Shown here piece by piece: positions 251-15,259 of a stretch of 15,333 nt of DNA (positions are counted from its first letter, which is position 1; each line of letters begins with the position of its first letter). Source of the DNA: a virus (taxonomy: Duplodnaviria; Heunggongvirae; Uroviricota; Caudoviricetes); the IMG/VR virus record IMGVR_UViG_3300010283_000228, positions 1-15,333 of that record; one strand, written 5' to 3'. A model generated the notes under the pieces. The model had not been told where the DNA came from and did not search any database. It worked only from the letters and a program-made list of their open reading frames with translations. The translations under genes and the position numbers were made by a program.

Positions 251-273
251 ATACCCCCAAAAGTACCCCCAAT
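251..273. repeat. 23-bp direct repeat ATACCCCCAAAAGTACCCCCAAT, copy 1 (candidate integrase arm-type site at the distal island end)
   Basis: Identical 23-mer found again at 15049-15071 between the integrase start and the tRNA. The repeat itself contains two ACCCCCAA units. The sequence identity is direct observation; the function is inference. Confidence 0.6.
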
Positions 274-842: not shown

Positions 843-2048
843 TCACATATTCGCCAATCGAATAAAACTCGGCATCCTTGGATCGGTGAACTTATACACG
901 CCTCTACCCAGTCTTTTTATTGTCGCTCCAAAATCCTTTTTAATTAAGCGTCCTGTATAGTTACTCATACTTTGGTTGTTATATCTCTCTCCAGTATCTT
1001 GATATATCTGGTTTATCCATTCTTTAACGCCAAACTCCTCATTTTTAAACTTTGACGCTGAATATAGAATTTTTTTGTACACATCTGTTTTAGATGAACG
1101 AACAGCATCCTCATACTCTCTTCTTAGCCTACCTTCAGCATTCTCAACTGATTTTTCAATTGATTTATGGAAGATTTCAGAATTAATAACTTTGCTTGAA
1201 TCAACAATGGCAGCCTCAGCAGCCTCCTTGCAAAGGAGGTGAGTAAAATATGGAAAGCCATTGCTTATATCAACTATTTGATTTTTAATTTCATCGTCAA
1301 ACCTTAGTCCTAATCCCTTTTCTCCCAGACTGATTATTTCTAACAGATGCTTTTCATCAACCCCTCCCAGACAAACCTCATGCAGGCATCTATTAACAGA
1401 TTCATGCCCTGCCGTAAGGCTTTTACCATCCTTAGAAATTCCCACAAGCAATACTTTCAATTTCGAATTAAAATCGCTCAACTGCTTTATAAACTCTGCA
1501 ACAGCTTTCTTTATATCGTCTTCTAATACATCAAACTCATCTATAACGAGAACCCCCTGAATTATTCCAATAGTCGCTGCTGCCTTTCGAGGAGTTATTT
1601 CATCTCGTTCTATAGTTATTTTTTCTTCATAACCCACGTTACCAGTAAAGAAACTAAAAAACTTTGCAGATAAGCCTGCCTTTATTACTTTCTCTTCCTT
1701 ATACTTTTCCGGGTTTTGTGAGATAAATATTGCACATTCAGAGACGATATCTTTAAATTTAGTGTTAGTATCACACTTCACATTAAAATACTCACCTAAA
1801 AGTACGTTGTATTGCCTGCCACCAATAACTGTAGCATTAGCTAATGAGCTCTTTCCGATTCCTCTATCACCATATATCATACAATGCCTACCAGGAACCG
1901 TTAAATTATCTAAAATACTTCTCACTTCAGTATCTCTCCCCTTTAAATACTCAGGATTAGATATAGGAGTTGAAGGAGTATAATATTTATTCACATCATC
2001 TTTTTTTGCAAATTCTTGTGCATACTCTGCAAAAATATTCACATACAT
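843..2048 (-). CDS. stand-alone P-loop NTPase (AAA+/AAA_16-like ATPase domain with uncharacterised C-terminal region), 401 aa
   Basis: Long ORF with a GGAG Shine-Dalgarno about 6 nt upstream of the ATG at 2048. Translation shows Walker A GDRGIGKSS preceded by an LKGRDTE motif typical of AAA_16-type NTPases, and Walker B VLVIDEFD. Visibly AT-rich compared with the island backbone. Flanked by its own upstream and downstream terminators. Confidence 0.85.
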   Translation of the reverse strand: MYVNIFAEYAQEFAKKDDVNKYYTPSTPISNPEYLKGRDTEVRSILDNLTVPGRHCMIYGDRGIGKSSLANATVIGGRQYNVLLGEYFNVKCDTNTKFKDIVSECAIFISQNPEKYKEEKVIKAGLSAKFFSFFTGNVGYEEKITIERDEITPRKAAATIGIIQGVLVIDEFDVLEDDIKKAVAEFIKQLSDFNSKLKVLLVGISKDGKSLTAGHESVNRCLHEVCLGGVDEKHLLEIISLGEKGLGLRFDDEIKNQIVDISNGFPYFTHLLCKEAAEAAIVDSSKVINSEIFHKSIEKSVENAEGRLRREYEDAVRSSKTDVYKKILYSASKFKNEEFGVKEWINQIYQDTGERYNNQSMSNYTGRLIKKDFGATIKRLGRGVYKFTDPRMPSFIRLANM

Positions 2049-2755: not shown

Positions 2756-3292
2756 TCATTGATGGTCTGATTTTTCCCATTCAGCCAGGGCGTTTAGCCC
2801 GGCTTCACTCCATGATTCCAGTTCATCGGGATAATCACCTGCAACATAGCAGAGTTCGCAACGTAGCATACGAATTGCCAGCCTGGCATTACCTCGCAAA
2901 TTGTATTTTTCAAAGTAATGCTGCCCTTCATCATCCTCAAGGCAGATAGCACCATCATCAAGAAAGAGCACTTCCCAGCCTAATTCCCCGGCTGCATACA
3001 GCACACGCTGCTGTATGTCATCGTCCGTTACTGGCGAAGGAATTTTACCGTCTCTGGCCTTAACTGCTTTCCAGAATTCGCCCCACGTCATTTCCAGCGT
3101 TCTTTCTGGCCACATTTCAGAAACGGTGTCTTTCCCTTGTGCCGGTGGGCTGTTCCGCTGCTCTGTCGCCTCCACATCAATTTTTTTGCCAGACATGATC
3201 ACTTCGCCTTTCTCGATCCAGTCGTAAACTGTCTGGCGGCTTACGCCTTTGTATTTGGCGTATTCGGCTTTACTCATCAACATGTAGCTCAC
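2756..3292 (-). CDS. winged-HTH DNA-binding protein with phage Nu1/small-terminase-like N-terminus, 178 aa (function uncertain: packaging-redirection or regulator)
   Basis: GAGGTG Shine-Dalgarno 6 nt upstream of the ATG at 3292. N-terminal KAEYAKYKGVSRQTVYDWIEKG aligns by eye with the lambda Nu1 HTH (KKQLADIFGASIRTIQNWQEQG) and also with the MerR/excisionase-type HTH. Acidic C-terminal half. Confidence 0.8.
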   Translation of the reverse strand: MSYMLMSKAEYAKYKGVSRQTVYDWIEKGEVIMSGKKIDVEATEQRNSPPAQGKDTVSEMWPERTLEMTWGEFWKAVKARDGKIPSPVTDDDIQQRVLYAAGELGWEVLFLDDGAICLEDDEGQHYFEKYNLRGNARLAIRMLRCELCYVAGDYPDELESWSEAGLNALAEWEKSDHQ

Positions 3293-3382: not shown

Positions 3383-3655
3383 TCAGTTGCGCCAGGATGG
3401 CTGGCTAAGCGTGGTTTTCATTACATCATTGACGACCTGTTTTACGATTTCTGTGTTGGCAGTCGTGCTTTCAACATCAACAAAGCCATAATCGCCAATT
3501 TCCACCGTCAGGGATTCCAGTTTCTTCCCTAGAGCATCAGGCAACTCTCCACTGAACCGGTGCTGAAGATTTTCCACCAGCAACGCCCTGAATGCCTCGC
3601 TGTTCTCTTTTTTCTGCCATAGCTGGCGTTTATCCACTCTGATATTTAATTTCAC
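3383..3655 (-). CDS. hypothetical protein, 90 aa, translationally coupled to the upstream 55-aa gene
   Basis: GTG start at 3655 overlaps the TGA stop of the upstream gene (GTGA), with GAGGTG about 5 nt upstream. Protein-like composition; no recognisable motif. Confidence 0.55.
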   Translation of the reverse strand: MKLNIRVDKRQLWQKKENSEAFRALLVENLQHRFSGELPDALGKKLESLTVEIGDYGFVDVESTTANTEIVKQVVNDVMKTTLSQPSWRN

Positions 3656-3819
3656 AGTCTCACCTCTTTAAGTGCCTTATCCATCAGTTGCCGGGCGATA
3701 ACATGAATCGACGGTGCCACACCAAGCACAGATTTCTGACGCTCTTCGTCCTGGATGCGTTGCAGGGCTTCGATCTGCCTCCGGGAAAGTAAAACTGGCT
3801 TTACTCCGTGATTTTTCAT
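3652..3819 (-). CDS. small putative DNA-binding protein, 55 aa (MKNHGVKPVLLSRRQIEALQRIQDEERQKSVLGVAPSIHVIARQLMDKALKEVRL)
   Basis: Internal ATG of the 107-aa track ORF, with AGAAGGGA Shine-Dalgarno 5 nt upstream. The N-terminal part of the track ORF is Cys/Asn-rich and runs through palindromic operator DNA, so it is judged non-coding. Perfect palindromes lie 20-70 bp upstream. Confidence 0.5.
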   Translation of the reverse strand: MKNHGVKPVLLSRRQIEALQRIQDEERQKSVLGVAPSIHVIARQLMDKALKEVRL

Positions 3820-3891: not shown

Positions 3892-4097
3892 AATGAAACG
3901 AAAAGCATCAATAAACCAACCTTCGGCACTGAATGCTCTGATTTTTCTGCAAAGGTATGGCAGATGTTGGTGCATGCAAACATAAAGGCAATAGCAGAAG
4001 AAGCTGCGGGGAGTGAAAAGGGGAAGTTTTTATAAATACACGATTGTCGCCTCACTGCAGGTTAACAGCCACAAGCTCCATGATAATAACTTGTTAA

Positions 4098-4421
4098 TTA
4101 TTTCATCAGATTTTTCATTATTTGCGCGATTGAGTACACAAGCAAAAACTCGGCAGCCGCAAGAGTATAAAAAACATAAATTCGCTTAGCCCACCGACGA
4201 TGAAAGAACTCCTCAGCATGGCCGGATGTTCGAGATACAAGCCATGCACCTACTGCACACAGAGCAGGTGCAATGAGCACAGTTATAAACCAGATTGTGA
4301 TGCCCATCCCATGCCTACTGATAATAGCCATTGGTATTGCAAAAATGAATGTTAGAGCAGCATTAGCTAATAGAATATCTTTTAAAGTATTTTCAATTAG
4401 TTTTGCTAGATTATCTTTCAT
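4098..4421 (-). CDS. small integral membrane protein, 107 aa, three predicted hydrophobic helices
   Basis: Three hydrophobic segments of about 20 residues each (ILLANAALTFIFAIPMAIIS, ITIWFITVLIAPALCAVGAWLV, IYVFYTLAAAEFLLVYSIAQIM). TGGGGGA lies 4 nt upstream of the ATG. AT-rich. Confidence 0.65.
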   Translation of the reverse strand: MKDNLAKLIENTLKDILLANAALTFIFAIPMAIISRHGMGITIWFITVLIAPALCAVGAWLVSRTSGHAEEFFHRRWAKRIYVFYTLAAAEFLLVYSIAQIMKNLMK

Positions 4422-4451
4422 CTAATCCCCCACGTTGAACATTAATATATA

Positions 4452-4474
4452 AAAGCCCCTTACTAAGGGGCTTT
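4452..4474 (-). terminator. rho-independent terminator after the lipoprotein gene
   Basis: 10-bp perfect stem aaagcccctt (4452-4461) / aaggggcttt (4465-4474), followed on the minus-strand transcript by UAUAUAUU. Confidence 0.55.
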
Positions 4475-4485
4475 GCACGGATTGT

Positions 4486-5628
4486 TTAAAGGGAACTTTT
4501 TTTCGCCCCTTCAATTTCTGCCTGACAAATTTCGTCATTTGTAAATGAGTACTGCAGATAGACATATCCCTGAGTGGAATTGTTCGCTCTGGCCTCAATA
4601 GATATAGTATCAATATTGTTTTTTAATGGTATTTCTTTTGTTCCCTTCCATGTAGCAGATAAGAAGCGTTCTTTTTTGTTTAGCCCCCTCATCCAGTCCT
4701 GAGGATCTTTCCAAATTGAACCAGCCAGCAAAAAGTCTGTAGTATCAGCCTTTCCATACAGAGAACTTAAAGAATTACTCAATTCTTCAAACTTGGATTT
4801 AAGAGCCAATCCATAGCTATCAGTATCAATATTTTTTCCTAAAGCCCGTATTTGACATAAACCAGCTTTCGGGGAGATCAGCAAACCATACATTTCAAAA
4901 TCTGCGTTTTGCTTCGGTAATTTATCAGAAGTATACAGATTCACACTGTCTGGTAGTGGCTTGAGCTTAGCACCGATCATATCTTCGATGTTTTTCTGTG
5001 TAAGACCGGCTTCTAAGCCAAACGGACCATCCGCTGGCGGGAGTAAAGGAAGTTGCTCTTGGGAATTTTTGGCTGTTACTTCCGTTTCAGTACTGTTTTT
5101 TGCGTCATTAGCTTGTACTGATGCCAGCTTAACTTCAGCGAGGCCATACTTGGCTGTGAGGTACTTTTGCTGCAACATTGCCATGGTCTGCTCTTCAGTG
5201 GCAACAGTAGATAATTTTAGTACCTTTATCAGACCACCACTATACTGACGAGCATCAGCTTTGGCTTCGTTGATTTTTGCATCTAAGCTGTCAATTTCAG
5301 TTTTAATTGAAGCCGCAAGCTCAGGATCAGGTTTTACTCCAGATACAACAACATCAATTTTGGCACCTGATTCAATAGCATTAATACGCTGTTCCAAAAG
5401 CGCTTTATTAGTTCCTAATATTTCCAGTCTTGCTGTTGTCAGATTTTTTATCAACCCACCAGAAAACTGCTGGTCAACTTCCTTAGCTGCTGATATTTCA
5501 CCTTCCGTTTGCGACAGTTCAGCTTTAAGAGCAGCTACTTCCTGTTTCTGTTCTGGAGTTAACTCTTCTGGCCCACATCCGGTTAACATTACTATACCGA
5601 CTAATGTTGCAATTAAAGTTTTATTCAT
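4486..5628 (-). CDS. lipoprotein, 380 aa, with internally repeated SGGLIK-containing module and uncharacterised C-terminal domain
   Basis: N-terminus MNKTLIATLVGIVMLTGC is a signal peptide ending in a lipobox (LTGC). Two related segments, QQFSGGLIKNL and RQYSGGLIKVL, each sit in a charged, helix-prone context. Long protein-like ORF, AT-rich. Shine-Dalgarno is weak (AGGG 2 nt from the ATG). Confidence 0.8.
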   Translation of the reverse strand: MNKTLIATLVGIVMLTGCGPEELTPEQKQEVAALKAELSQTEGEISAAKEVDQQFSGGLIKNLTTARLEILGTNKALLEQRINAIESGAKIDVVVSGVKPDPELAASIKTEIDSLDAKINEAKADARQYSGGLIKVLKLSTVATEEQTMAMLQQKYLTAKYGLAEVKLASVQANDAKNSTETEVTAKNSQEQLPLLPPADGPFGLEAGLTQKNIEDMIGAKLKPLPDSVNLYTSDKLPKQNADFEMYGLLISPKAGLCQIRALGKNIDTDSYGLALKSKFEELSNSLSSLYGKADTTDFLLAGSIWKDPQDWMRGLNKKERFLSATWKGTKEIPLKNNIDTISIEARANNSTQGYVYLQYSFTNDEICQAEIEGAKKSSL

Positions 5629-5762
5629 ATCCCTATTCCAAATGAAAATATTCAGATTAATCTTATCAGGAACCCAGATGCAATTGAATATTCATCTGCT
5701 CAGCAACGTAGTAGATTTCCTCAGAAAGCATCAACAAAAAACCAAGAGAATCCCATCCTCTG

Positions 5763-6960: not shown

Positions 6961-8766
6961 TTATGTTCTGTCGTTAATCCCTGTAGCTGCTGGCAACCAG
7001 CCATCAGCATCATCATCTAACAGAACATTTGTTATCACTCGCCCTTTATCCGGGCCTTTAGTGCATTTAGCCCGCTTATACTCCTTTCCGTATTCCGCCA
7101 TAGCTCCTGGCATATCAGTACCAAAGCGTGTCAGTGATACTGGTTTTCCCAGGCCATGCGCTGACATATAGGCTAAATAAGCATGATACAGGTATCGCCT
7201 CGGGCTAAATGGCACTATTTCCGCATTGCCCACCATCATTCCTTCACATTTAACCAACGACATCAGATAGCCGCAAAAGTCCACCAGTGAATCACCTTCG
7301 CGCTTTATCAACAGCGCTTCTTCTGATTTTTGCTGCTCATAAAGTAGTCTTTTAGCTTCGTCCTGGTCGGTAAATCGTGTTAGCAAATGGCGAATCACTA
7401 CCGCCAGTTCGCCTTCTATCTTTTCCGCCAGCATGGGATCGCGTTCGTTCTCCGGTACGACCTCAGAGAAATTAAATATCACCCTACGACGCGAGATCCC
7501 CCCGCTTCGGTCACTGAATGACATGGCGTTATTGTTTACCGCAAGCACTACTGCCGGAATACGTGTGGAGTAGGGGGCTTTATGTTTCGGATCAATTGCC
7601 ACCTTGTCGCCGCCAGTAATTGCCTTAATTCCTGCACCATCGCCAGCGTAGCGAGTCATATCCGGCATGATAATCAGCGAAAAGCCAACTACTAACGCGC
7701 GTTCCCTTGCGTCTTCCAGAGCCTTCATGCTTGCCGATACTGTGTTGGCCTTACCCGCCAGCATGGTACAAATCTCAGCCATCACACTTTTACCGCTTCC
7801 GCCTGGGCCTGTTACCTCAAGGAATAACTGCCAGTCGTACCGGTTCGCCAGCACCATGAATAATGCCGCCAGTACGCGATCAGCTTTACGATCATTATCT
7901 GCCACCGAACGACGCAGCCACTTCCAGAAATTCGGCGCATGTGTTGCCAGCGTTTCCCCCTCTGCTGGTGGGCTGAACGGTAATTCACTGGCATTTAACA
8001 ACCAGTCATTTTTGTTATGCTCCCGAAAATTTCCCGTCCGGGTATCAAATACCCCGTTACTGAATCCAATAAGATTCCTGTCTGCCCCGCCCATAACAGG
8101 CAGGCTCAATTTCATTGTGTCTACGGCAAATTTAATGGCGTTTTGCGAATAACTGATTCCAGCATCAATAAAAATCTTCGCCATAGACCGCTGGAGTTCC
8201 TTATCAGATACAGGCACCCAGACAATTCCGTTGTAATGGTGAACTACATCAGAATCATCATTTATAGCCAGTGCTCTTCCATAATATTCAAGTAACACTT
8301 CCCCTCTCTGGCTGGCTCCCATCTGATTTAGTGCTGGCCTGGATAGGTCAATATTTTTTGTGGCTAATTTCATCGCTGAAACTTCCCCACTCTCTGCCTG
8401 TTCGCGGATCCGTTGCAGGTAGTCGCGCCAGTTTTCCGGCTCCCGGTCGGTGATACCTTTGTATAATTTCGCGTCCTGTACACCAGCCAGCGCCAGCTTT
8501 TCAGCAATAGCATTGATCTGGATTGGCTCTATCTCCCCCGCGAGATAGACACGTGCAAAGCGGCGTTTCTCGTCAATAATGCGGATATTCGCCAGGTCTG
8601 CCAGTTGCTTTGGCCCCAGATAAACAGGTGGCACGTTATCGCCGTGTTTTCGTCCTTCGCTTTCAATCCAGTGTTGAGCATGGGCGTAAGCATCCGTCCC
8701 GGCAAAAATGATTACCTCGGTGAATTTATCCTTCGGCTGATATTTTAAATTCGGTGCGTTTTTCAC
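6961..8766 (-). CDS. P4 alpha-like phage/plasmid primase-helicase (replication initiator), 601 aa
   Basis: Walker A GPGGSGKS in the C-terminal half. Overall resemblance to P4-family primase C-terminal regions is from memory of that family. GTG start at 8766 overlaps the upstream TGA, with GGGGAGG about 8 nt upstream. Confidence 0.88.
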   Translation of the reverse strand: MKNAPNLKYQPKDKFTEVIIFAGTDAYAHAQHWIESEGRKHGDNVPPVYLGPKQLADLANIRIIDEKRRFARVYLAGEIEPIQINAIAEKLALAGVQDAKLYKGITDREPENWRDYLQRIREQAESGEVSAMKLATKNIDLSRPALNQMGASQRGEVLLEYYGRALAINDDSDVVHHYNGIVWVPVSDKELQRSMAKIFIDAGISYSQNAIKFAVDTMKLSLPVMGGADRNLIGFSNGVFDTRTGNFREHNKNDWLLNASELPFSPPAEGETLATHAPNFWKWLRRSVADNDRKADRVLAALFMVLANRYDWQLFLEVTGPGGSGKSVMAEICTMLAGKANTVSASMKALEDARERALVVGFSLIIMPDMTRYAGDGAGIKAITGGDKVAIDPKHKAPYSTRIPAVVLAVNNNAMSFSDRSGGISRRRVIFNFSEVVPENERDPMLAEKIEGELAVVIRHLLTRFTDQDEAKRLLYEQQKSEEALLIKREGDSLVDFCGYLMSLVKCEGMMVGNAEIVPFSPRRYLYHAYLAYMSAHGLGKPVSLTRFGTDMPGAMAEYGKEYKRAKCTKGPDKGRVITNVLLDDDADGWLPAATGINDRT

Positions 8767-9867: not shown

Positions 9868-10084
9868 GGTGCACCTCCTGTACATCAGCCATGATAATTT
9901 TTCCGGCCTTATCCAGTGCCTGATCGGCTTTCAGCTGCACAAATGCTAAATAATGGGAGATGCATTCTGATTCTCTGGCTGCGTGTTTATGCGCCACACC
10001 AGCGATAGCAGAAATCTCAATAAGTGAATCCATCAGCGTTTTGATAGCGTCTACCGCTGCATCAGGCCATGTTGCATTACACAT
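9860..10084 (-). CDS. hypothetical protein, 74 aa
   Basis: AGGAGGTGG upstream of the ATG at 10084; ATGTGTAA overlap with the upstream stop. Confidence 0.55.
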   Translation of the reverse strand: MCNATWPDAAVDAIKTLMDSLIEISAIAGVAHKHAARESECISHYLAFVQLKADQALDKAGKIIMADVQEVHHA

Positions 10085-10442
10085 GCTCCACCTCCTGGCG
10101 AATACGGGCAGCGAATACCATCACGCAGCCATCAGGAGATTGCTGGCGTGCTTCCTGTTCGCTGGTGGCCTCGATGTGAATCACGCGCGGTTGTGCCGTA
10201 CTCAGGGCGATAAAACGCCAGATAAAATTGTTTTCGCATTTCTGAATAAACAACGTGTTTTCTTCGCGCCCTTTCCATGTTGCCGAGATATAGCCCATGT
10301 CATTGAGCATCTCGCAGGCATCAACCAGCGTATCGGCGGCTACATGAACAGTGTTTTTACCGTCAGCCATGCAATCACGGTGCACCGCCAAGAAGGTGTA
10401 TATAAATTTAGGGTGAGTTTGGGTATGCTGTGCCCCAGCCAT
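10077..10442 (-). CDS. hypothetical protein, 121 aa (first gene of the leftward small-gene/primase operon)
   Basis: Internal ATG at 10442 with GAGGT 7 nt upstream, located just inside the divergent promoter region. It is the C-terminal in-frame part of the 512-codon track ORF. Confidence 0.45.
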   Translation of the reverse strand: MAGAQHTQTHPKFIYTFLAVHRDCMADGKNTVHVAADTLVDACEMLNDMGYISATWKGREENTLFIQKCENNFIWRFIALSTAQPRVIHIEATSEQEARQQSPDGCVMVFAARIRQEVEHV

Positions 10443-11615
10443 AATCGTTACCTCATTTAACGGTTTGGTTAGACGCCCCGCTACTGCCGCAAACAGTTCG
10501 GGGCGTTGTCGTTTATATCCTCTTACTGAGGTGTGATTTAAATTAAATTTAACTGAATCACAGGTCAAGTATTTTTTGTGATTCTTTTTTGTGTATACTG
10601 AATCACATCTTTTGTTTAGGAGAATGCACATGGCAAAAAACACTATCAACGACAAATCAAAACAGATTTCAATTCGTATCCCACATGATGCTTTTGAAGG
10701 CATGGAATCCGTAAAACTGGACGGCGAAAGCAACGCCGGATTCATAGTAACCGCCATGCGTGGTGAGATCGCCCGCCGCCAGGCAGAAGGAAGCGGAGAA
10801 AATCCCCTGGTTTCTTCGCTCAATGCACTGGCGCAGGTGGAAAAAATCGGAGTCAAAGCTGTCGAGGAGATCGGGCAGCTCGTCACCGTCGCACGTGAAG
10901 AACTCCAGCGCCGCAAGGCCAAAGAATCAGAATAATAACTATCATCGCCGTGGTGTGAGGAACTCCGGCGCATTGCTTTACAGGTACACAGAATGACCAA
11001 CAAAGAATCGACCAATACACCATCACCGGCACGGAAAAGACAGCGCAGAAAGATAACGTACGAATATGAGTCAGACAGATTCGCGCCCTGTGCGTTTATC
11101 CTTGAGAAATTCCTTAAAGAGTACAGGCGCACAAAAATGGGGTCGCATACCTGGAAAACATCGCGGCATGGCAATGTTAAAGAGCAGGAATAGCCCACCA
11201 GCAAGCCAACACACTGATCACATTGCCCACCAGCCGCAAATCTGGCATTGTTGGCGATGTGTTCAAGTGTGTAGCTTTCCCACTGGTGGCCCTCTGCGGT
11301 CGCCTTTGTTTTATCCAGAACGAAATTAGACATCAGATTGATCATCACCTTGCGACCTGACAAAATCGCATCAGTCGCGCCACCAGCAAAATTTTTTGCT
11401 TTCCGGACAGCGTGACCAACGACATTTTGCAGCAAAATATTCTGCATTTCTGGCGTGCTGTAGTAACGGTGATCAGCGCCTTCACTCTGTGCGACCACAA
11501 CGCTATAATCTGCCTCGTAGACAGTAAGCAATATGGCGCAGTAGGCTATTCGTTCACAAAGGCGCTCCGGCAACGGGGCGCTTTCTCTTTTTGTAACGGT
11601 CAGAGCGTTACACAT
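10077..11615 (-). CDS. 512-codon open frame; real translation start at 11615 but middle section probably not a genuine protein
   Basis: ATG at 11615 has GGAGGA upstream and the same ATGTGTAA stop/start overlap as the other coupled genes. The first ~140 codons look protein-like. The middle ~250 codons are Ser/Cys/Arg-rich and run antisense through the RHH gene and the AT-rich promoter region. No in-frame stop before 10077. Confidence 0.3.
   Translation of the reverse strand: MCNALTVTKRESAPLPERLCERIAYCAILLTVYEADYSVVVAQSEGADHRYYSTPEMQNILLQNVVGHAVRKAKNFAGGATDAILSGRKVMINLMSNFVLDKTKATAEGHQWESYTLEHIANNARFAAGGQCDQCVGLLVGYSCSLTLPCRDVFQVCDPIFVRLYSLRNFSRINAQGANLSDSYSYVIFLRCLFRAGDGVLVDSLLVILCTCKAMRRSSSHHGDDSYYSDSLALRRWSSSRATVTSCPISSTALTPIFSTCASALSEETRGFSPLPSAWRRAISPRMAVTMNPALLSPSSFTDSMPSKASCGIRIEICFDLSLIVFFAMCILLNKRCDSVYTKKNHKKYLTCDSVKFNLNHTSVRGYKRQRPELFAAVAGRLTKPLNEVTIMAGAQHTQTHPKFIYTFLAVHRDCMADGKNTVHVAADTLVDACEMLNDMGYISATWKGREENTLFIQKCENNFIWRFIALSTAQPRVIHIEATSEQEARQQSPDGCVMVFAARIRQEVEHV
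10533..10607. promoter_or_regulatory. divergent promoter region with two operator-like inverted repeats TGTGATT-N16-AATCACA
   Basis: TGTGATT at 10533 and 10578, AATCACA at 10556 and 10601, giving operators centred about 45 bp apart. A TATACT -10-like hexamer at 10594-10599 overlaps the second operator, upstream of the plus-strand RHH gene. Confidence 0.5.
10630..10935 (+). CDS. Arc/CopG-type ribbon-helix-helix DNA-binding protein, 101 aa (candidate island repressor)
   Basis: TAGGAGA Shine-Dalgarno 6 nt upstream of the ATG at 10630. KQISIRIPHDAFEGMESVKLDGE followed by SNAGFIVTAMRGEI fits the strand-helix-helix pattern of Arc-like repressors. Coiled-coil-like C-terminal half. Only plus-strand gene in the island, directly after the operator repeats. 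Confidence 0.55.
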   Translation: MAKNTINDKSKQISIRIPHDAFEGMESVKLDGESNAGFIVTAMRGEIARRQAEGSGENPLVSSLNALAQVEKIGVKAVEEIGQLVTVAREELQRRKAKESE

Positions 11616-13802: not shown

Positions 13803-15017
13803 TCACCCGCATTTTCCGAACTCACCATGCACCACATTTCCGCCATGCTCGAGCGAATCCATATAGTCGGCATACCACTGGAGCATCTCCCGGCGACCAT
13901 CCAGATATTGCGCATGGTTGTATGTGCCACGAATTGAGTTTTTATCGACGTGTGCGAGCTGTGTCTCTATCCACGCGGTGTTATAGCCCTGCTCATGCAA
14001 AATGGTGCTCATGGTGTGCCGGAATCCATGACCAGTAACCTTTCCGTTATAGCCGATGCGTTTAAATACTTGGTTTATGCTAGCCTCGCTCATTGTTTTC
14101 CTTGGATCATTACGGCCGGGAAACATAAGCGGATAATTGCCAGTTAATTCTTTAATCTGCCCAATAAGCGAAAGAGCCTGCTTAGACAAAGGCACCACAT
14201 GAGGGCGACGCATTTTCATCCGTGAAGCAGGTATCTCCCAGATAGCCTTGTTGAGATCGATTTCATCCCATAATGCACCGCGCAGTTCGCCAGTCCGCAA
14301 ACCGGTGATAATCAGTAGACGAGCCGCCATAACAACCAATGCACTTCCTGAGTAACTGGACAATGCCTTGAAAAAATCAGGTAATTCTTTGGCTGTGAGG
14401 AAAGGATAATGATTAGATTCATGACCTTGCATCGCGCTGGTGAGATCCGGTGCAGGGTTATACTCAGCACGTCCAGTGACAATTGCATAGCGGAAAACCT
14501 CCCCGCATCGCTGCCTCACTTTTTTGGCTTTTTCGGTAGCACCGCGCCCCTCGATGCGCCGCAGCACATTCAGCAGTTCAAGTGGTTTGATTTCGGCGAT
14601 TGGTTTTTTGCCAATGTAAGGGAACACATCTTTGTTGAAGGCTTCGAGGATGTCTGAAGCATAACCAGCAGACCATTTTTTTAATTTGCTGCTGTGCCAC
14701 TCAAGGGCAATATCTTTGAAGGTGTTGTTTAACTGCGTTTCCCGGGCAATCTTTTCCTCTCGTTTCGCTTCCATCGGATCGATACCCCCAGCGATACCCC
14801 TTTTAGCTTCTTCACGTTTTGCACGAGCATCAGCCAAGGTAACTTCAGGATACACACCTAGTGCTAACAGCTTCTCTTTACCAGCTACACGATACTTGAA
14901 GCGCCAATATTTTCCTCCACTAGGTTTTACCAAGAGATACAGACCGCCACCATCAGCCAGCTTGTAAGCCTTCTCTTTTGGCTTGGCAGTGTCTATTTGA
15001 CGGGCATTGAGTTTCAC
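13803..15017 (-). CDS. int: P4-family tyrosine integrase, 404 aa
   Basis: N-terminus KPKEKAYKLADGGGLYLLVKPSGGKYWRFKYR is the hallmark of P4-type integrases. Catalytic-region motifs TGLRTGELRG, HGFRHT and RGTYNHAQY are present. GTG start with GGAGG 9 nt upstream. Located 166 bp from the 3' end of the tRNA. Confidence 0.9.
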   Translation of the reverse strand: MKLNARQIDTAKPKEKAYKLADGGGLYLLVKPSGGKYWRFKYRVAGKEKLLALGVYPEVTLADARAKREEAKRGIAGGIDPMEAKREEKIARETQLNNTFKDIALEWHSSKLKKWSAGYASDILEAFNKDVFPYIGKKPIAEIKPLELLNVLRRIEGRGATEKAKKVRQRCGEVFRYAIVTGRAEYNPAPDLTSAMQGHESNHYPFLTAKELPDFFKALSSYSGSALVVMAARLLIITGLRTGELRGALWDEIDLNKAIWEIPASRMKMRRPHVVPLSKQALSLIGQIKELTGNYPLMFPGRNDPRKTMSEASINQVFKRIGYNGKVTGHGFRHTMSTILHEQGYNTAWIETQLAHVDKNSIRGTYNHAQYLDGRREMLQWYADYMDSLEHGGNVVHGEFGKCG

Positions 15018-15048: not shown

Positions 15049-15071
15049 ATACCCCCAAAAGTACCCCCAAT
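15049..15071. repeat. 23-bp direct repeat ATACCCCCAAAAGTACCCCCAAT, copy 2, with nearby inverted GTACCCCCAA-like copies; candidate integrase arm sites
   Basis: Identical to 251-273. Inverted partial copies TTGGGGGTAC at 15018-15027 and TTTTGGGGTAC at 15082-15092 flank it, between the integrase start codon and the tRNA. Confidence 0.6.
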
Positions 15072-15183: not shown

Positions 15184-15259
15184 TGGTGCCGATAAGAGGA
15201 GTCGAACCTCCGACCTTCGCATTACGAATGCGCTGCTCTACCAACTGAGCTATATCGGC
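15184..15259 (-). tRNA. thrW: tRNA-Thr (anticodon CGU)
   Basis: Reverse complement reads GCCGATATAGCTCAGTTGGTAGAGCAGCGCATTCGTAATGCGAAGGTCGGAGGTTCGACTCCTCTTATCGGCACCA: 7-bp acceptor stem, D arm, anticodon loop TTCGTAA (anticodon CGT), T arm GGAGG/TTCGACT/CCTCT, 3' CCA. The thrW symbol is assigned because CGU is the thrW anticodon in E. coli. Confidence 0.9.

What the first reader, a model, noticed from the sequence alone, without database searches (positions are those of the whole stretch)
4098..5628. AT-rich lipoprotein with internal SGGLIK repeat, followed by a three-helix membrane protein: candidate envelope-acting exclusion or defence pair
The 380-aa lipoprotein has a canonical lipobox and two copies of a charged helical module centred on SGGLIK, then about 200 residues of unrecognised sequence. 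A hairpin terminator separates it from a 107-aa membrane protein with three predicted hydrophobic helices. Both genes are AT-rich cargo. Envelope proteins carried by prophages and satellites often mediate superinfection exclusion (established knowledge); that role here is inference.
Basis: partly seen in the sequence, partly recalled or inferred. Interest (0 to 1): 0.55.

Follow-up and report, generated by a model that had tools for sequence, protein, structure and literature searches.

The report
Satellite-borne envelope lipoprotein moron cassette
A phage-satellite island in E. coli carries a self-contained 1.85-kb add-on encoding a large, uncharacterised outer-membrane-type lipoprotein and a small membrane protein. 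In related prophages the lipoprotein's relatives sit next to the tail tape-measure gene, so it is a plausible but unproven blocker of incoming phages.

Summary
ORF 4486-5628(-) is a 380-aa lipoprotein with lipobox LTGC (Cys18) and two SGGLIK helical-hairpin repeats. A conserved hairpin terminator follows, then a 107-aa protein with three hydrophobic helices (4098-4421, -).

Both genes lie in one AT-rich 1.85-kb indel (3900-5748) of a PICI-type satellite integrated at tRNA-Thr. A collinear E. coli island lacks this indel.

The "pair" is not obligate. The membrane protein was next to the lipoprotein wherever its context could be checked, but its family is tiny (17 clusters). The lipoprotein family is large (2,871 clusters at 50% identity), has no Pfam, PHROG, NCBIfam or PADLOC match, and mostly occurs without the partner.

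The lipoprotein is modular:
- lipid anchor
- conserved double coiled-coil hairpin "stalk"
- linker
- disulfide-bonded α/β domain (pLDDT 96.7; only weak fold matches, to DcrB, PsbP/Mog1, Eag and T6SS-immunity-like proteins)

It is under strong purifying selection. It carries its own extended -10-like promoter, overlapped by a conserved exact RcsB-box match.

In prophages, homologues sit 0-3 small genes upstream of the tape-measure gene, the slot of the HK97 gp15 exclusion moron.

The best reading is a periplasmic superinfection-exclusion or envelope-protection moron. This is inferred and untested.

The parts
3900..5748 (-). Two-gene accessory (moron) cassette, present or absent as one unit
   Evidence: A collinear E. 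coli PICI (NZ_LR883000, L045) matches the window up to 3899 and again from 5749, with only 17 bp in between. GC is 39.8% against 46.9% and 55.5% in the flanks. A 14-nt direct repeat AAAGCATCAA[T/C]AAA lies at both edges, 3902-3915 and 5725-5738.
5650..5670 (-). Conserved promoter/operator unit upstream of the lipoprotein gene. It reads CCTGATAAGATTAATCTGAAT: an extended -10-like TGnTAAGAT overlapping the palindrome TAAGATTAATCTGA, which matches the RcsB box
   Evidence: TGnTAGGAT(T/A)A(A/T)TCC(G)A is conserved at a fixed distance from the ATG in 20 of ~24 distinct upstream sequences, while DNA further upstream diverges. It is an exact match to TN(G/A)GAN4TC(T/C)NA (PMC7913699). It is the only match in the window, where 0.76 is expected by chance.
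4486..5628 (-). 380-aa lipoprotein gene (stop codon included)
   Evidence: ORF. 99.9% identical in 113 of 5,426 complete E. coli genomes. 318 homologues found by word search and 2,871 50%-identity clusters by profile search. dN/dS 0.05-0.10.
5575..5628 (-). Signal peptide and lipobox LTGC (residues 1-18); Gly at +2
   Evidence: G17, C18, G19 and P20 are invariant in alignment A1. The N-module follows a lipobox Cys in nearly all distant relatives.
5371..5556 (-). Helical hairpin 1 (residues 25-86), with SGGLIK at the turn (56-61)
   Evidence: AlphaFold secondary structure; repeat statistics; invariant G58, L59, I60, R67, T73, N74, Q80, R81.
5146..5325 (-). Helical hairpin 2 (residues 102-161), with SGGLIK at the turn (130-135)
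   Evidence: The N-module (both hairpins) is 40-55% identical to lipoproteins from distant bacteria that carry other C-terminal domains.
5041..5139 (-). Variable, low-confidence linker (residues ~164-196)
   Evidence: pLDDT below 50 for residues 164-194. This is the only poorly conserved stretch of alignment A1.
4489..5040 (-). C-terminal alpha/beta 'GPFGL' domain (residues 197-380) with covarying Cys258/Cys368
   Evidence: Model pLDDT 96.7, pTM 0.90. It also occurs as stand-alone secreted ~200-aa proteins. Of 49 sequences, 40 have both Cys, 7 have neither and 2 have one. Fold matches are weak.
4452..4474 (-). Intrinsic terminator hairpin after the lipoprotein gene
   Evidence: I12, 100% complementary arms. 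Conserved in Klebsiella, Edwardsiella, Citrobacter and Yokenella loci, with changes only in the loop.
4098..4421 (-). 107-aa protein with three hydrophobic helices, predicted inner membrane
   Evidence: 17 homologous clusters. It lies directly downstream of a lipoprotein homologue in all 8 clusters that were checked: 3 by locus inspection and 3 by shared contig length. It is also adjacent in 16 IMG/VR loci. dN/dS 0.17-0.21.

Best explanation
The cassette is a moron carried by a PICI-type phage satellite.

Shown:
- Its main product is a lipoprotein with a lipid-modified Cys18, a conserved double antiparallel coiled-coil hairpin module, a flexible linker and a compact alpha/beta domain. A covarying cysteine pair in that domain places it outside the cytoplasm.
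- The gene carries its own compact extended -10-like promoter and its own terminator.
- It is gained or lost as a unit.
- It is retained under strong purifying selection in satellites, in prophages and in island remnants next to tRNA genes.

Inferred:
- Gly at +2 would send the protein to the inner leaflet of the outer membrane. The hairpin module would act as a stalk or docking element, holding the C-terminal binding domain in the periplasm.
- There it would interfere with an incoming phage after adsorption, at the stage when tail-tip and tape-measure proteins cross the periplasm and peptidoglycan. Alternatively it would lock a conserved host envelope factor that this step needs.
- That would be superinfection exclusion, protecting both the host and the resident element.
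- The conserved RcsB-box-like palindrome over the -10/start region would tie expression to the Rcs envelope-stress system, most simply as repression.
- The 107-aa inner-membrane protein is a lineage-specific addition, expressed at a lower level by terminator read-through. It would act either as a second, inner-membrane barrier or as an unrelated stacked moron.
For: Element type: the island has integrase, AlpA, AntA, a D5-type primase, ProQ and PerC, sits at tRNA-Thr, and has no structural genes. A published E. coli PICI reports the same hallmarks: integrase, AlpA, PerC and a primase, with no structural or lysis genes (PMC11773190).

Moron features:
- A discrete indel with low GC.
- Its own conserved promoter unit and conserved terminator.

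Localisation: lipobox and covarying Cys pair.

Modularity: the N-module and C-domain each occur alone or with other partners.

Position in phages:
- In at least 6 different arrangements, homologues lie 0-3 small genes upstream of a tape-measure gene. The tape-measure genes were confirmed by TMP_3 and Tape_meas_lam_C matches.
- HK97 gp15, a proven exclusion protein, occupies this slot (PMC3594210).

Fold: the nearest viral models are phage lipoproteins. The weak PDB neighbours are non-enzymatic envelope binders or immunity-like proteins: DcrB, PA1624, RhsI1, TsiN and Eag.

Retention: intact genes lie beside tRNA genes where the rest of the island is gone, and dN/dS is 0.05-0.10.
Against: - No phenotype data exist, and I found no paper on this protein.
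- There is no hit to any PADLOC, PHROG-annotated, Pfam or NCBIfam family.
- None of 50,697 GenBank phage genomes encodes a homologue by tblastn.
- Very strong purifying selection across elements with unrelated tape-measure proteins fits a conserved host target better than a variable phage target. It would fit a housekeeping-like envelope role equally well.
- Stand-alone C-domain proteins occur in ordinary chromosomal contexts in other bacteria.
- The promoter, transcription start and RcsB binding are all inferred from sequence only.
Confidence: 0.35

Rival explanations
1. Envelope-protection or 'immunity-like' factor not aimed at phages. The periplasmic domain would bind and neutralise other periplasm-acting attackers, such as bacteriocins, type VI effectors or peptidoglycan hydrolases including lysozyme. 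Alternatively it would buffer envelope stress, as part of the Rcs regulon.
For: - The weak fold neighbours include T6SS immunity and chaperone proteins and periplasmic lipoproteins: RhsI1, TsiN, TplEi, SciW and DcrB.
- One N-module relative carries a VasI (T6SS) domain.
- An exact RcsB-box match is conserved at the promoter.
- Stand-alone C-domains occur in non-mobile contexts.
- Very low dN/dS.
- The gene is retained in degraded islands.
Against: - No toxin or effector gene is adjacent in any locus examined.
- The recurrent position beside tape-measure genes is not explained by this reading.
Confidence: 0.25
2. The two genes form an obligate two-component system. The outer-membrane lipoprotein and the inner-membrane protein would work together, in the way TraT/TraS or T4 Imm/Sp pairs do.
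For: - The membrane protein was directly downstream of the lipoprotein gene, 64-68 nt away, in all 8 of its 17 clusters that could be checked and in 16 IMG/VR loci.
- The two genes are gained or lost together in E. coli.
Against: - Most lipoprotein homologues have no such partner and no analogous small membrane gene.
- The partner is degraded next to an intact lipoprotein gene in Yokenella.
- A conserved terminator separates the genes.
- The predicted topology leaves the membrane protein almost no periplasmic surface (inference).
Confidence: 0.15
3. Host-interaction or virulence-type moron. A surface- or envelope-exposed lipoprotein would change adhesion, serum resistance or colonisation, as lambda Bor and Lom do, with no role against phages.
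For: - The cassette sits next to PerC and ProQ accessory regulators on an island found in pathogenic lineages such as O104:H4 and 55989.
- Morons often encode such factors (PMC3594210).
Against: - The family is spread across plant-, insect- and soil-associated Enterobacterales (Pantoea, Xenorhabdus, Rouxiella, Rahnella) and beyond, which argues against a host-specific virulence role.
- There is no homology to Bor, Lom or TraT.
Confidence: 0.1
4. A function in the element's own life cycle, for example modulating helper-phage lysis or envelope events at release.
For: - The cassette lies directly upstream of the orf55-orf90-HTH178 block.
- The HTH178 protein has a terminase-small-subunit-like N-terminus.
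- In some satellite-like relatives the gene precedes a tape-measure-like gene.
Against: - A near-identical island lacks the cassette, so it is dispensable for the island.
- A periplasmic lipoprotein cannot act on cytoplasmic packaging or tail assembly.
- It has its own promoter and terminator rather than being part of an operon.
Confidence: 0.08

Closest known systems
HK97 gp15 moron (superinfection exclusion at DNA entry)
   Same: Both are self-contained morons with deviating GC. Homologues of the lipoprotein occupy the same tail-operon slot next to the tape-measure gene (PMC3594210). Both products are envelope-located.
   Different: gp15 is described as a small inner-membrane protein of the YebO family (PMC3594210). 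This is a 380-aa lipoprotein with no sequence similarity to it. In the window itself the cassette is on a satellite with no tape-measure gene.
Ltp of Streptococcus thermophilus phage TP-J34 (lipoprotein exclusion factor)
   Same: Both are lipid-anchored extracytoplasmic proteins, and Ltp is an established superinfection-exclusion lipoprotein (PMC3952083). From my own knowledge, Ltp also has tandem helical repeats and acts at tape-measure-dependent DNA injection.
   Different: Ltp comes from a Gram-positive host. No homology was detected. The repeats here are coiled-coil hairpins, and there is an additional alpha/beta domain.
Cor (phi80/N15) and Llp (T5) receptor-blocking outer-membrane lipoproteins
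   Same: All are phage-encoded lipoproteins with genes in or near the tail region, acting from the envelope to block superinfection. From my own knowledge, Llp does so from the periplasmic face of FhuA (paper PMC9586334 was listed but not read).
   Different: From my own knowledge, Cor and Llp are small (roughly 60-80 aa) and their genes neighbour the receptor-binding protein gene. This protein is five times larger, is modular, and neighbours the tape-measure gene in prophages. No Pfam or PHROG family of any kind was matched.
TraT/TraS exclusion pair of F-like plasmids
   Same: Both are an adjacent outer-membrane lipoprotein plus a small hydrophobic inner-membrane protein on a mobile element (my own knowledge).
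   Different: There is no homology. Here the two genes are separable, and the lipoprotein mostly occurs alone.
Mog1/PsbP/DcrB-like periplasmic alpha/beta proteins and T6SS immunity or Eag proteins
   Same: These are the best structural neighbours of the C-domain: PA1624, SciW, RhsI1, DcrB and TsiN. All are non-enzymatic binding modules of the envelope or of secretion systems.

Membership tests
Moron (independent accessory transcription unit in a phage or satellite) | Present or absent as a discrete insertion relative to otherwise collinear relatives | tested here: met
   Window 3900-5748 is replaced by 17 bp in NZ_LR883000. Another island has different genes in the same slot.
Moron (independent accessory transcription unit in a phage or satellite) | Base composition differs from the surrounding genes | tested here: met
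   39.8% GC against 46.9% and 55.5% in the flanks.
Moron (independent accessory transcription unit in a phage or satellite) | Own promoter and own terminator | tested here: inconclusive
   The terminator is clear and conserved. The promoter is inferred only from a conserved TGnTAGGAT extended -10-like element. The two-hexamer scan found no promoter upstream of the gene; its single hit lies inside the coding sequence. No transcript data are available.
Bacterial lipoprotein (Lgt/LspA substrate) | Signal peptide ending in the lipobox [LVI][ASTVI][GAS]C | tested here: met
   LTGC with Cys18. It is invariant in the family and conserved in distant N-module proteins.
Bacterial lipoprotein (Lgt/LspA substrate) | Outer-membrane sorting (no Asp at +2) | tested here: met
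   Gly19 at +2 is invariant. The actual location was not tested.
Cor/Llp-type receptor-blocking lipoproteins | Sequence homology to Cor or Llp; small size (roughly 60-80 aa) | tested here: not met
   No Pfam or PHROG hit. The protein is 380 aa.
HK97 gp15/YebO-type exclusion protein | Moron located beside the tape-measure gene | tested here: met
   This holds for homologues in prophages. It does not hold in the window itself, which has no tape-measure gene.
HK97 gp15/YebO-type exclusion protein | Small single-pass inner-membrane protein homologous to YebO | tested here: not met
   Neither protein matches any Pfam family. Size and topology also differ.
Known anti-phage defence systems (PADLOC-DB v2) | Match to a defence-system protein model | tested here: not met
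   Zero families for both proteins.
Spanin (Rz/Rz1) lysis pair | Outer-membrane lipoprotein plus an inner-membrane protein with a periplasmic coiled coil, in a lysis cassette | tested here: not met
   No holin or endolysin is nearby. The coiled coil is on the lipoprotein, and the membrane protein has no periplasmic domain. No PHROG hit.
Pore-forming colicin immunity proteins (E1 type), considered for the 107-aa protein | About 100-115 aa, three transmembrane helices (my own knowledge); sequence homology | tested here: not met
   Size and helix count fit, but there is no Pfam hit even at E <= 5.
Mog1/PsbP/DUF1795-like fold | Significant structural superposition over most of the domain | tested here: inconclusive
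RcsB regulon | RcsB box TN(G/A)GAN4TC(T/C)NA in the regulatory region | tested here: met
   TAAGATTAATCTGA at 5652-5665. It is conserved at the same position in 20 of ~24 distinct upstream regions, with changes only at N or R/Y positions. The consensus is from PMC7913699.
RcsB regulon | RcsB binding and Rcs-dependent expression | not testable with these tools
   This needs EMSA or footprinting and reporter assays in rcsB and rcsC mutants.
CpxP/Spy LTXXQ periplasmic chaperones, considered for the N-module | Match to the LTXXQ family above its threshold | tested here: not met
   PF07813 scores E = 0.028 and 15.6 bits against a cut-off of 24.3. A profile search of the PDB finds only designed coiled coils.

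The most novel reading that the evidence does not exclude
The lipoprotein defines a large, unrecognised family of modular periplasmic 'guard' lipoproteins. A conserved double-hairpin stalk would dock to a conserved envelope component, and exchangeable C-terminal binding domains would provide specificity. Prophages and satellites would deploy these proteins, under Rcs envelope-stress control, to block tape-measure-mediated genome delivery by competing phages. That would be a general periplasmic layer of anti-phage immunity, distinct from receptor masking and from cytoplasmic defence systems.
Probability: 0.12. Interest if true: 0.72.

Novelty: new variant of a known kind. Interest (0 to 1): 0.42.

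Why it matters
Most known anti-phage systems act in the cytoplasm. Few envelope-level exclusion factors of Gram-negative bacteria are understood, and those that are known are small proteins.

This one is a large, well-folded, strongly conserved lipoprotein. Its family has about 2,900 clusters at 50% identity and no entry in Pfam, NCBIfam, PHROGs (by direct match) or PADLOC. It recurs in the tape-measure-adjacent moron slot of prophages and on satellites.

If it blocks genome delivery, it would:
- give a handle on the poorly understood periplasmic step of siphophage DNA injection;
- add a class of genes that defence-finding pipelines currently miss;
- link prophage or satellite cargo to the host Rcs stress response, through the conserved RcsB-box-like operator.

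If it does not block phages, it is still a widespread envelope protein of unknown role that mobile elements keep.

Tried and rejected
1. Family scans (Pfam, PHROGs, NCBIfam, PADLOC) gave nothing significant for either protein. The weak LpoB, SbsC_C and LTXXQ hits are below threshold and cover only the signal peptide or coiled coil.

3. The AFDB Foldseek library was not available.

4. Sequence and profile searches of the PDB were empty, apart from designed coiled coils.

5. tblastn against 50,697 GenBank phage genomes found no match.

6. Back-translation of the C-domain alignment for a genome scan failed because the alignment is too divergent.

7. Literature searches by accession, locus tag and keywords found no paper on these proteins.

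8. Readings considered and rejected: a spanin pair, a class I holin, a colicin immunity protein and TraT/TraS homology. Each lacks homology and has the wrong context or topology.

9. I tested whether the 178-aa HTH protein downstream is an Rpp (packaging redirection) homologue. There was no sequence match to any PDB chain, and none to RppC, which PMC6739421 reports as crystallised. Only a terminase-small-subunit-like HTH match was found.

10. One source names a homologue 'TolA-binding protein'. I treated this as a coiled-coil artefact.
Full report
**1. What is there**

The window is an E. coli island of about 14.8 kb. It is integrated beside tRNA-Thr(cgt), which lies at 15184-15259, and is flanked by a 23-nt direct repeat at 251 and 15049. 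All its genes read on the minus strand:
- integrase, 13803-15017
- an AlpA-like gene
- an AntA antirepressor
- a D5-type primase/helicase, 6961-8766
- ProQ/FinO
- PerC
- the two genes of the finding
- three small genes, ending in a 178-aa HTH protein
- an nSTAND1-like ATPase, 843-2048

 There are no capsid, tail or lysis genes. A published E. coli PICI reports the same hallmarks: integrase, AlpA and PerC regulators, a primase, and no structural or lysis genes (PMC11773190). The same island at the same site is annotated in E. coli 55989, where both genes of the finding are 'hypothetical protein'.

**2.

The 380-aa ORF (4486-5628, minus strand) has a classical lipoprotein signal ending in LTGC, with Cys18. 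SGGLIK occurs at residues 56 and 130. The two N-terminal halves align with a score of 76, against 28.5 +/- 5.2 for shuffles.

A full-length AlphaFold model (pLDDT 69.5) shows two helical hairpins, at 25-86 and 102-161. Each SGGLIK sits at a hairpin turn. A disordered linker follows, then an alpha/beta domain.

The hairpin terminator (4452-4474) has perfect 11-nt arms and is conserved in four other genera, with changes only in the loop.

The 107-aa ORF (4098-4421) has three hydrophobic segments. Both genes are about 39-40% GC.

**3. The two genes are one mobile cassette, but not an obligate pair**

A collinear E. coli island (NZ_LR883000) matches the window up to 3899 and again from 5749, with only 17 bp in between. 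Another island holds unrelated genes in that slot. The cassette is therefore a 1.85-kb indel. A 14-nt direct repeat lies at its two edges.

The cassette is 99.9% identical in 113 of 5,426 complete E. coli genomes, and in 112 of these the match spans both genes.

The membrane protein has only 17 homologous clusters. Its context could be checked for eight of them, and all eight are next to a lipoprotein homologue. Three were inspected directly, from Klebsiella, Edwardsiella and Citrobacter. Three more share a contig length with a lipoprotein cluster. The same adjacency holds in E. ruysiae and in 16 IMG/VR loci.

The converse is not true. Lipoprotein homologues of 41-88% identity lack the partner, and have no analogous small membrane gene, in:
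- Enterobacter satellites
- Pantoea
- 15 other species-level genomes
- about 30 IMG/VR loci

In Yokenella the partner is a degraded 74-codon remnant beside an intact lipoprotein gene.

**4. A large, uncurated, modular family**

No Pfam, PHROG, NCBIfam or PADLOC model matches either protein.

A profile search of 1.84 billion representatives found 2,871 clusters at E <= 0.001. Of these, 475 scored E <= 1e-30.

Among the best 150 hits:
- 32 have both modules;
- 39 have only the N-module, nearly always straight after a lipobox cysteine, either alone or fused to other C-terminal domains, one of them a VasI (T6SS) domain;
- 79 have only the C-domain, mostly as ~200-aa secreted proteins that begin GPFGL right after the signal peptide

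.

The N-module is 40-55% identical between the window protein and lipoproteins from distant bacteria.

The C-domain modelled alone, with 49 diverse sequences, gives pLDDT 96.7 and pTM 0.90. Cys258 and Cys368 covary: 40 sequences have both, 7 have neither and 2 have one. That is the signature of a disulfide, and hence of an extracytoplasmic location. The conserved residues are mostly glycines and aromatics, and no conserved histidine or obvious catalytic set is present. The domain is therefore more likely a binding module than an enzyme; this is an inference.

**5. Fold comparison is uninformative about function**

In the viral model library the best match is an Erwinia phage 'lipoprotein' (E = 3e-7, TM 0.61-0.63), followed by other ~190-aa phage proteins. 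Three distant C-domain members hit phrog_28385, a family of unknown function.

**6. Genomic position in phages**

A scan of IMG/VR returned 50 loci. In at least six different arrangements, homologues of 41-64% identity lie 0-3 small genes upstream of an 857-1,202-aa ORF. These ORFs carry TMP_3 or Tape_meas_lam_C domains, or share the same C-terminus.

In L032, the genes beyond the tape-measure ORF follow a lambda-like tail-module order (my reading of ORF sizes and sequences, not a domain search). In L039 and L040, where a C-domain-only relative sits in the same slot, the downstream genes do carry Phage_min_tail, Phage_tail_L and NLPC_P60 domains.

This is the slot of the first described moron, HK97 gene 15. 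Its product blocks genome injection by other phages in a way that depends on the tail region of the incoming phage (PMC3594210).

In satellite-like relatives (L029, L030, L074, L075) the order is lipoprotein, an orf55 homologue, a 108-aa gene, then a tape-measure-like gene. The window keeps lipoprotein, (membrane protein) and orf55, but has no tape-measure gene.

No homologue is found in the 50,697 GenBank phage genomes.

**7. The gene carries its own control unit**

About 50 nt upstream of the ATG are conserved across genera, while DNA further upstream diverges. The conserved unit is TGnTAGGAT(T/A)A(A/T)TCC(G)A, then about 20 variable nt, then the ribosome-binding site.

TGnTAGGAT resembles an extended -10 element. 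The overlapping palindrome is an exact match to the RcsB box TN(G/A)GAN4TC(T/C)NA defined in PMC7913699. It sits at a fixed position in 20 of ~24 distinct upstream sequences. The substitutions fall only at N positions or within the allowed R/Y positions; the window copy is TAAGATTAATCTGA, with both arms changed.

A single match in 15 kb is not significant on its own, since 0.76 is expected by chance. The positional conservation is what counts.

Because the box overlaps the putative -10 and start region, repression by RcsB is the simplest reading. Binding by another regulator with a similar site cannot be excluded. All of this is inference from sequence.

The membrane gene has no conserved promoter between the terminator and its ATG. 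It is therefore probably expressed at a low level by read-through; this too is an inference.

**8. Selection and retention**

dN/dS is 0.05-0.10 for the lipoprotein and 0.17-0.21 for the membrane protein.

In several genomes an intact lipoprotein gene lies 0.3-1.6 kb from a tRNA gene (Thr-cgt, Arg-tct or Gly-ccc), with the rest of the island missing. This suggests the gene is kept because it benefits the host.

**9. Interpretation**

What is shown: the cassette is a moron, and the lipoprotein is extracytoplasmic and modular.

What is inferred: the Gly at +2 suggests outer-membrane anchoring, with the protein facing the periplasm. The recurrent tape-measure-adjacent position and carriage on satellites make superinfection exclusion at the genome-delivery step the best single hypothesis. 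I put it at about 0.35. The exclusion could work by binding ejected tail proteins, or by locking a conserved host factor.

The very strong conservation, across elements with unrelated tape-measure proteins, favours a conserved host target. It equally allows a non-phage envelope-protection role, which I put at about 0.25. The idea of an obligate two-protein system is weak, at about 0.15.

**10. Novelty and score**

The kind of thing, a moron-encoded envelope protein that probably acts in exclusion, is well known. The protein family, its architecture and its possible Rcs wiring are not described in any resource or paper I could search.

I rate it a new variant of a known kind, with interest 0.42. 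It is a good experimental lead rather than a surprise.

Noticed in passing
window 251-273 and 15049-15071; 15184-15259; 1-85: A 23-nt direct repeat, ATACCCCCAAAAGTACCCCCAAT, brackets the island (~14.8 kb) next to tRNA-Thr(cgt). Bases 1-85 encode the C-terminal end of another tyrosine recombinase, which suggests a second element in tandem at this tRNA site.
   Followed up: partly
window 843-2048 (-); L001, L011, L015, L017: The distal end of the island is a variable cargo slot. Here it holds an nSTAND1-like P-loop ATPase (phrog_6841, weak PADLOC PDC-S59 hit). E. coli 55989 has an AAA ATPase plus a DUF4435 protein, which I recall as the PARIS domain composition. Citrobacter has a SEFIR/TIR protein, Klebsiella a KAP NTPase, and Edwardsiella an ORC/CDC6-like ATPase.
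   Followed up: partly
window 5652-5665 (also L002-L079 at -37 from the lipoprotein ATG): An exact RcsB-box match overlaps an extended -10-like element. It is conserved across genera, with substitutions only at degenerate positions. This is a possible link between satellite or prophage cargo and the Rcs envelope-stress response.
   Followed up: partly
window 3902-3915 and 5725-5738: A 14-nt direct repeat, AAAGCATCAA[T/C]AAA, lies at both edges of the cassette. Looser similarity extends ~40 nt, which hints at how the cassette was inserted or can be lost.
   Followed up: no
window 2756-3292 (-), 3383-3655 (-), 3652-3819 (-): A conserved three-gene block lies downstream of the cassette. The 55-aa and 90-aa proteins have no family match. 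The 178-aa protein has an N-terminal HTH resembling terminase small subunits and excisionases (phrog_57), so it may be a packaging-redirection (Rpp-like) protein. It showed no sequence match to any PDB chain.
   Followed up: partly
L029 9837-12410; L030 9841-13449; L074/L075: These satellite-like elements have AlpA, a primase and PerC, with no capsid genes seen in the stretch examined. They nevertheless carry an 857-1,202-aa tape-measure-like gene right after the lipoprotein, an orf55 homologue and a 108-aa gene.
   Followed up: no
window 10077-11615 (-) versus 10591-10935 (+): The 512-aa minus-strand ORF looks spurious. RefSeq annotates small plus-strand genes in the corresponding region of E. 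coli 55989, including a YlcI/YnfO family protein, and the region has unusual AT skew.
   Followed up: no
L014 about 8345-8390: A tandem (GGGGCTT)n repeat lies just downstream of the membrane-protein gene in an Edwardsiella-type locus. The window has a single copy-like sequence at that position.
   Followed up: no
L064 +2 gene; L029 7601-7957: In some relatives, additional unrelated small lipoprotein genes lie beside the lipoprotein gene in the same slot. The slot therefore accumulates several envelope morons.
   Followed up: no
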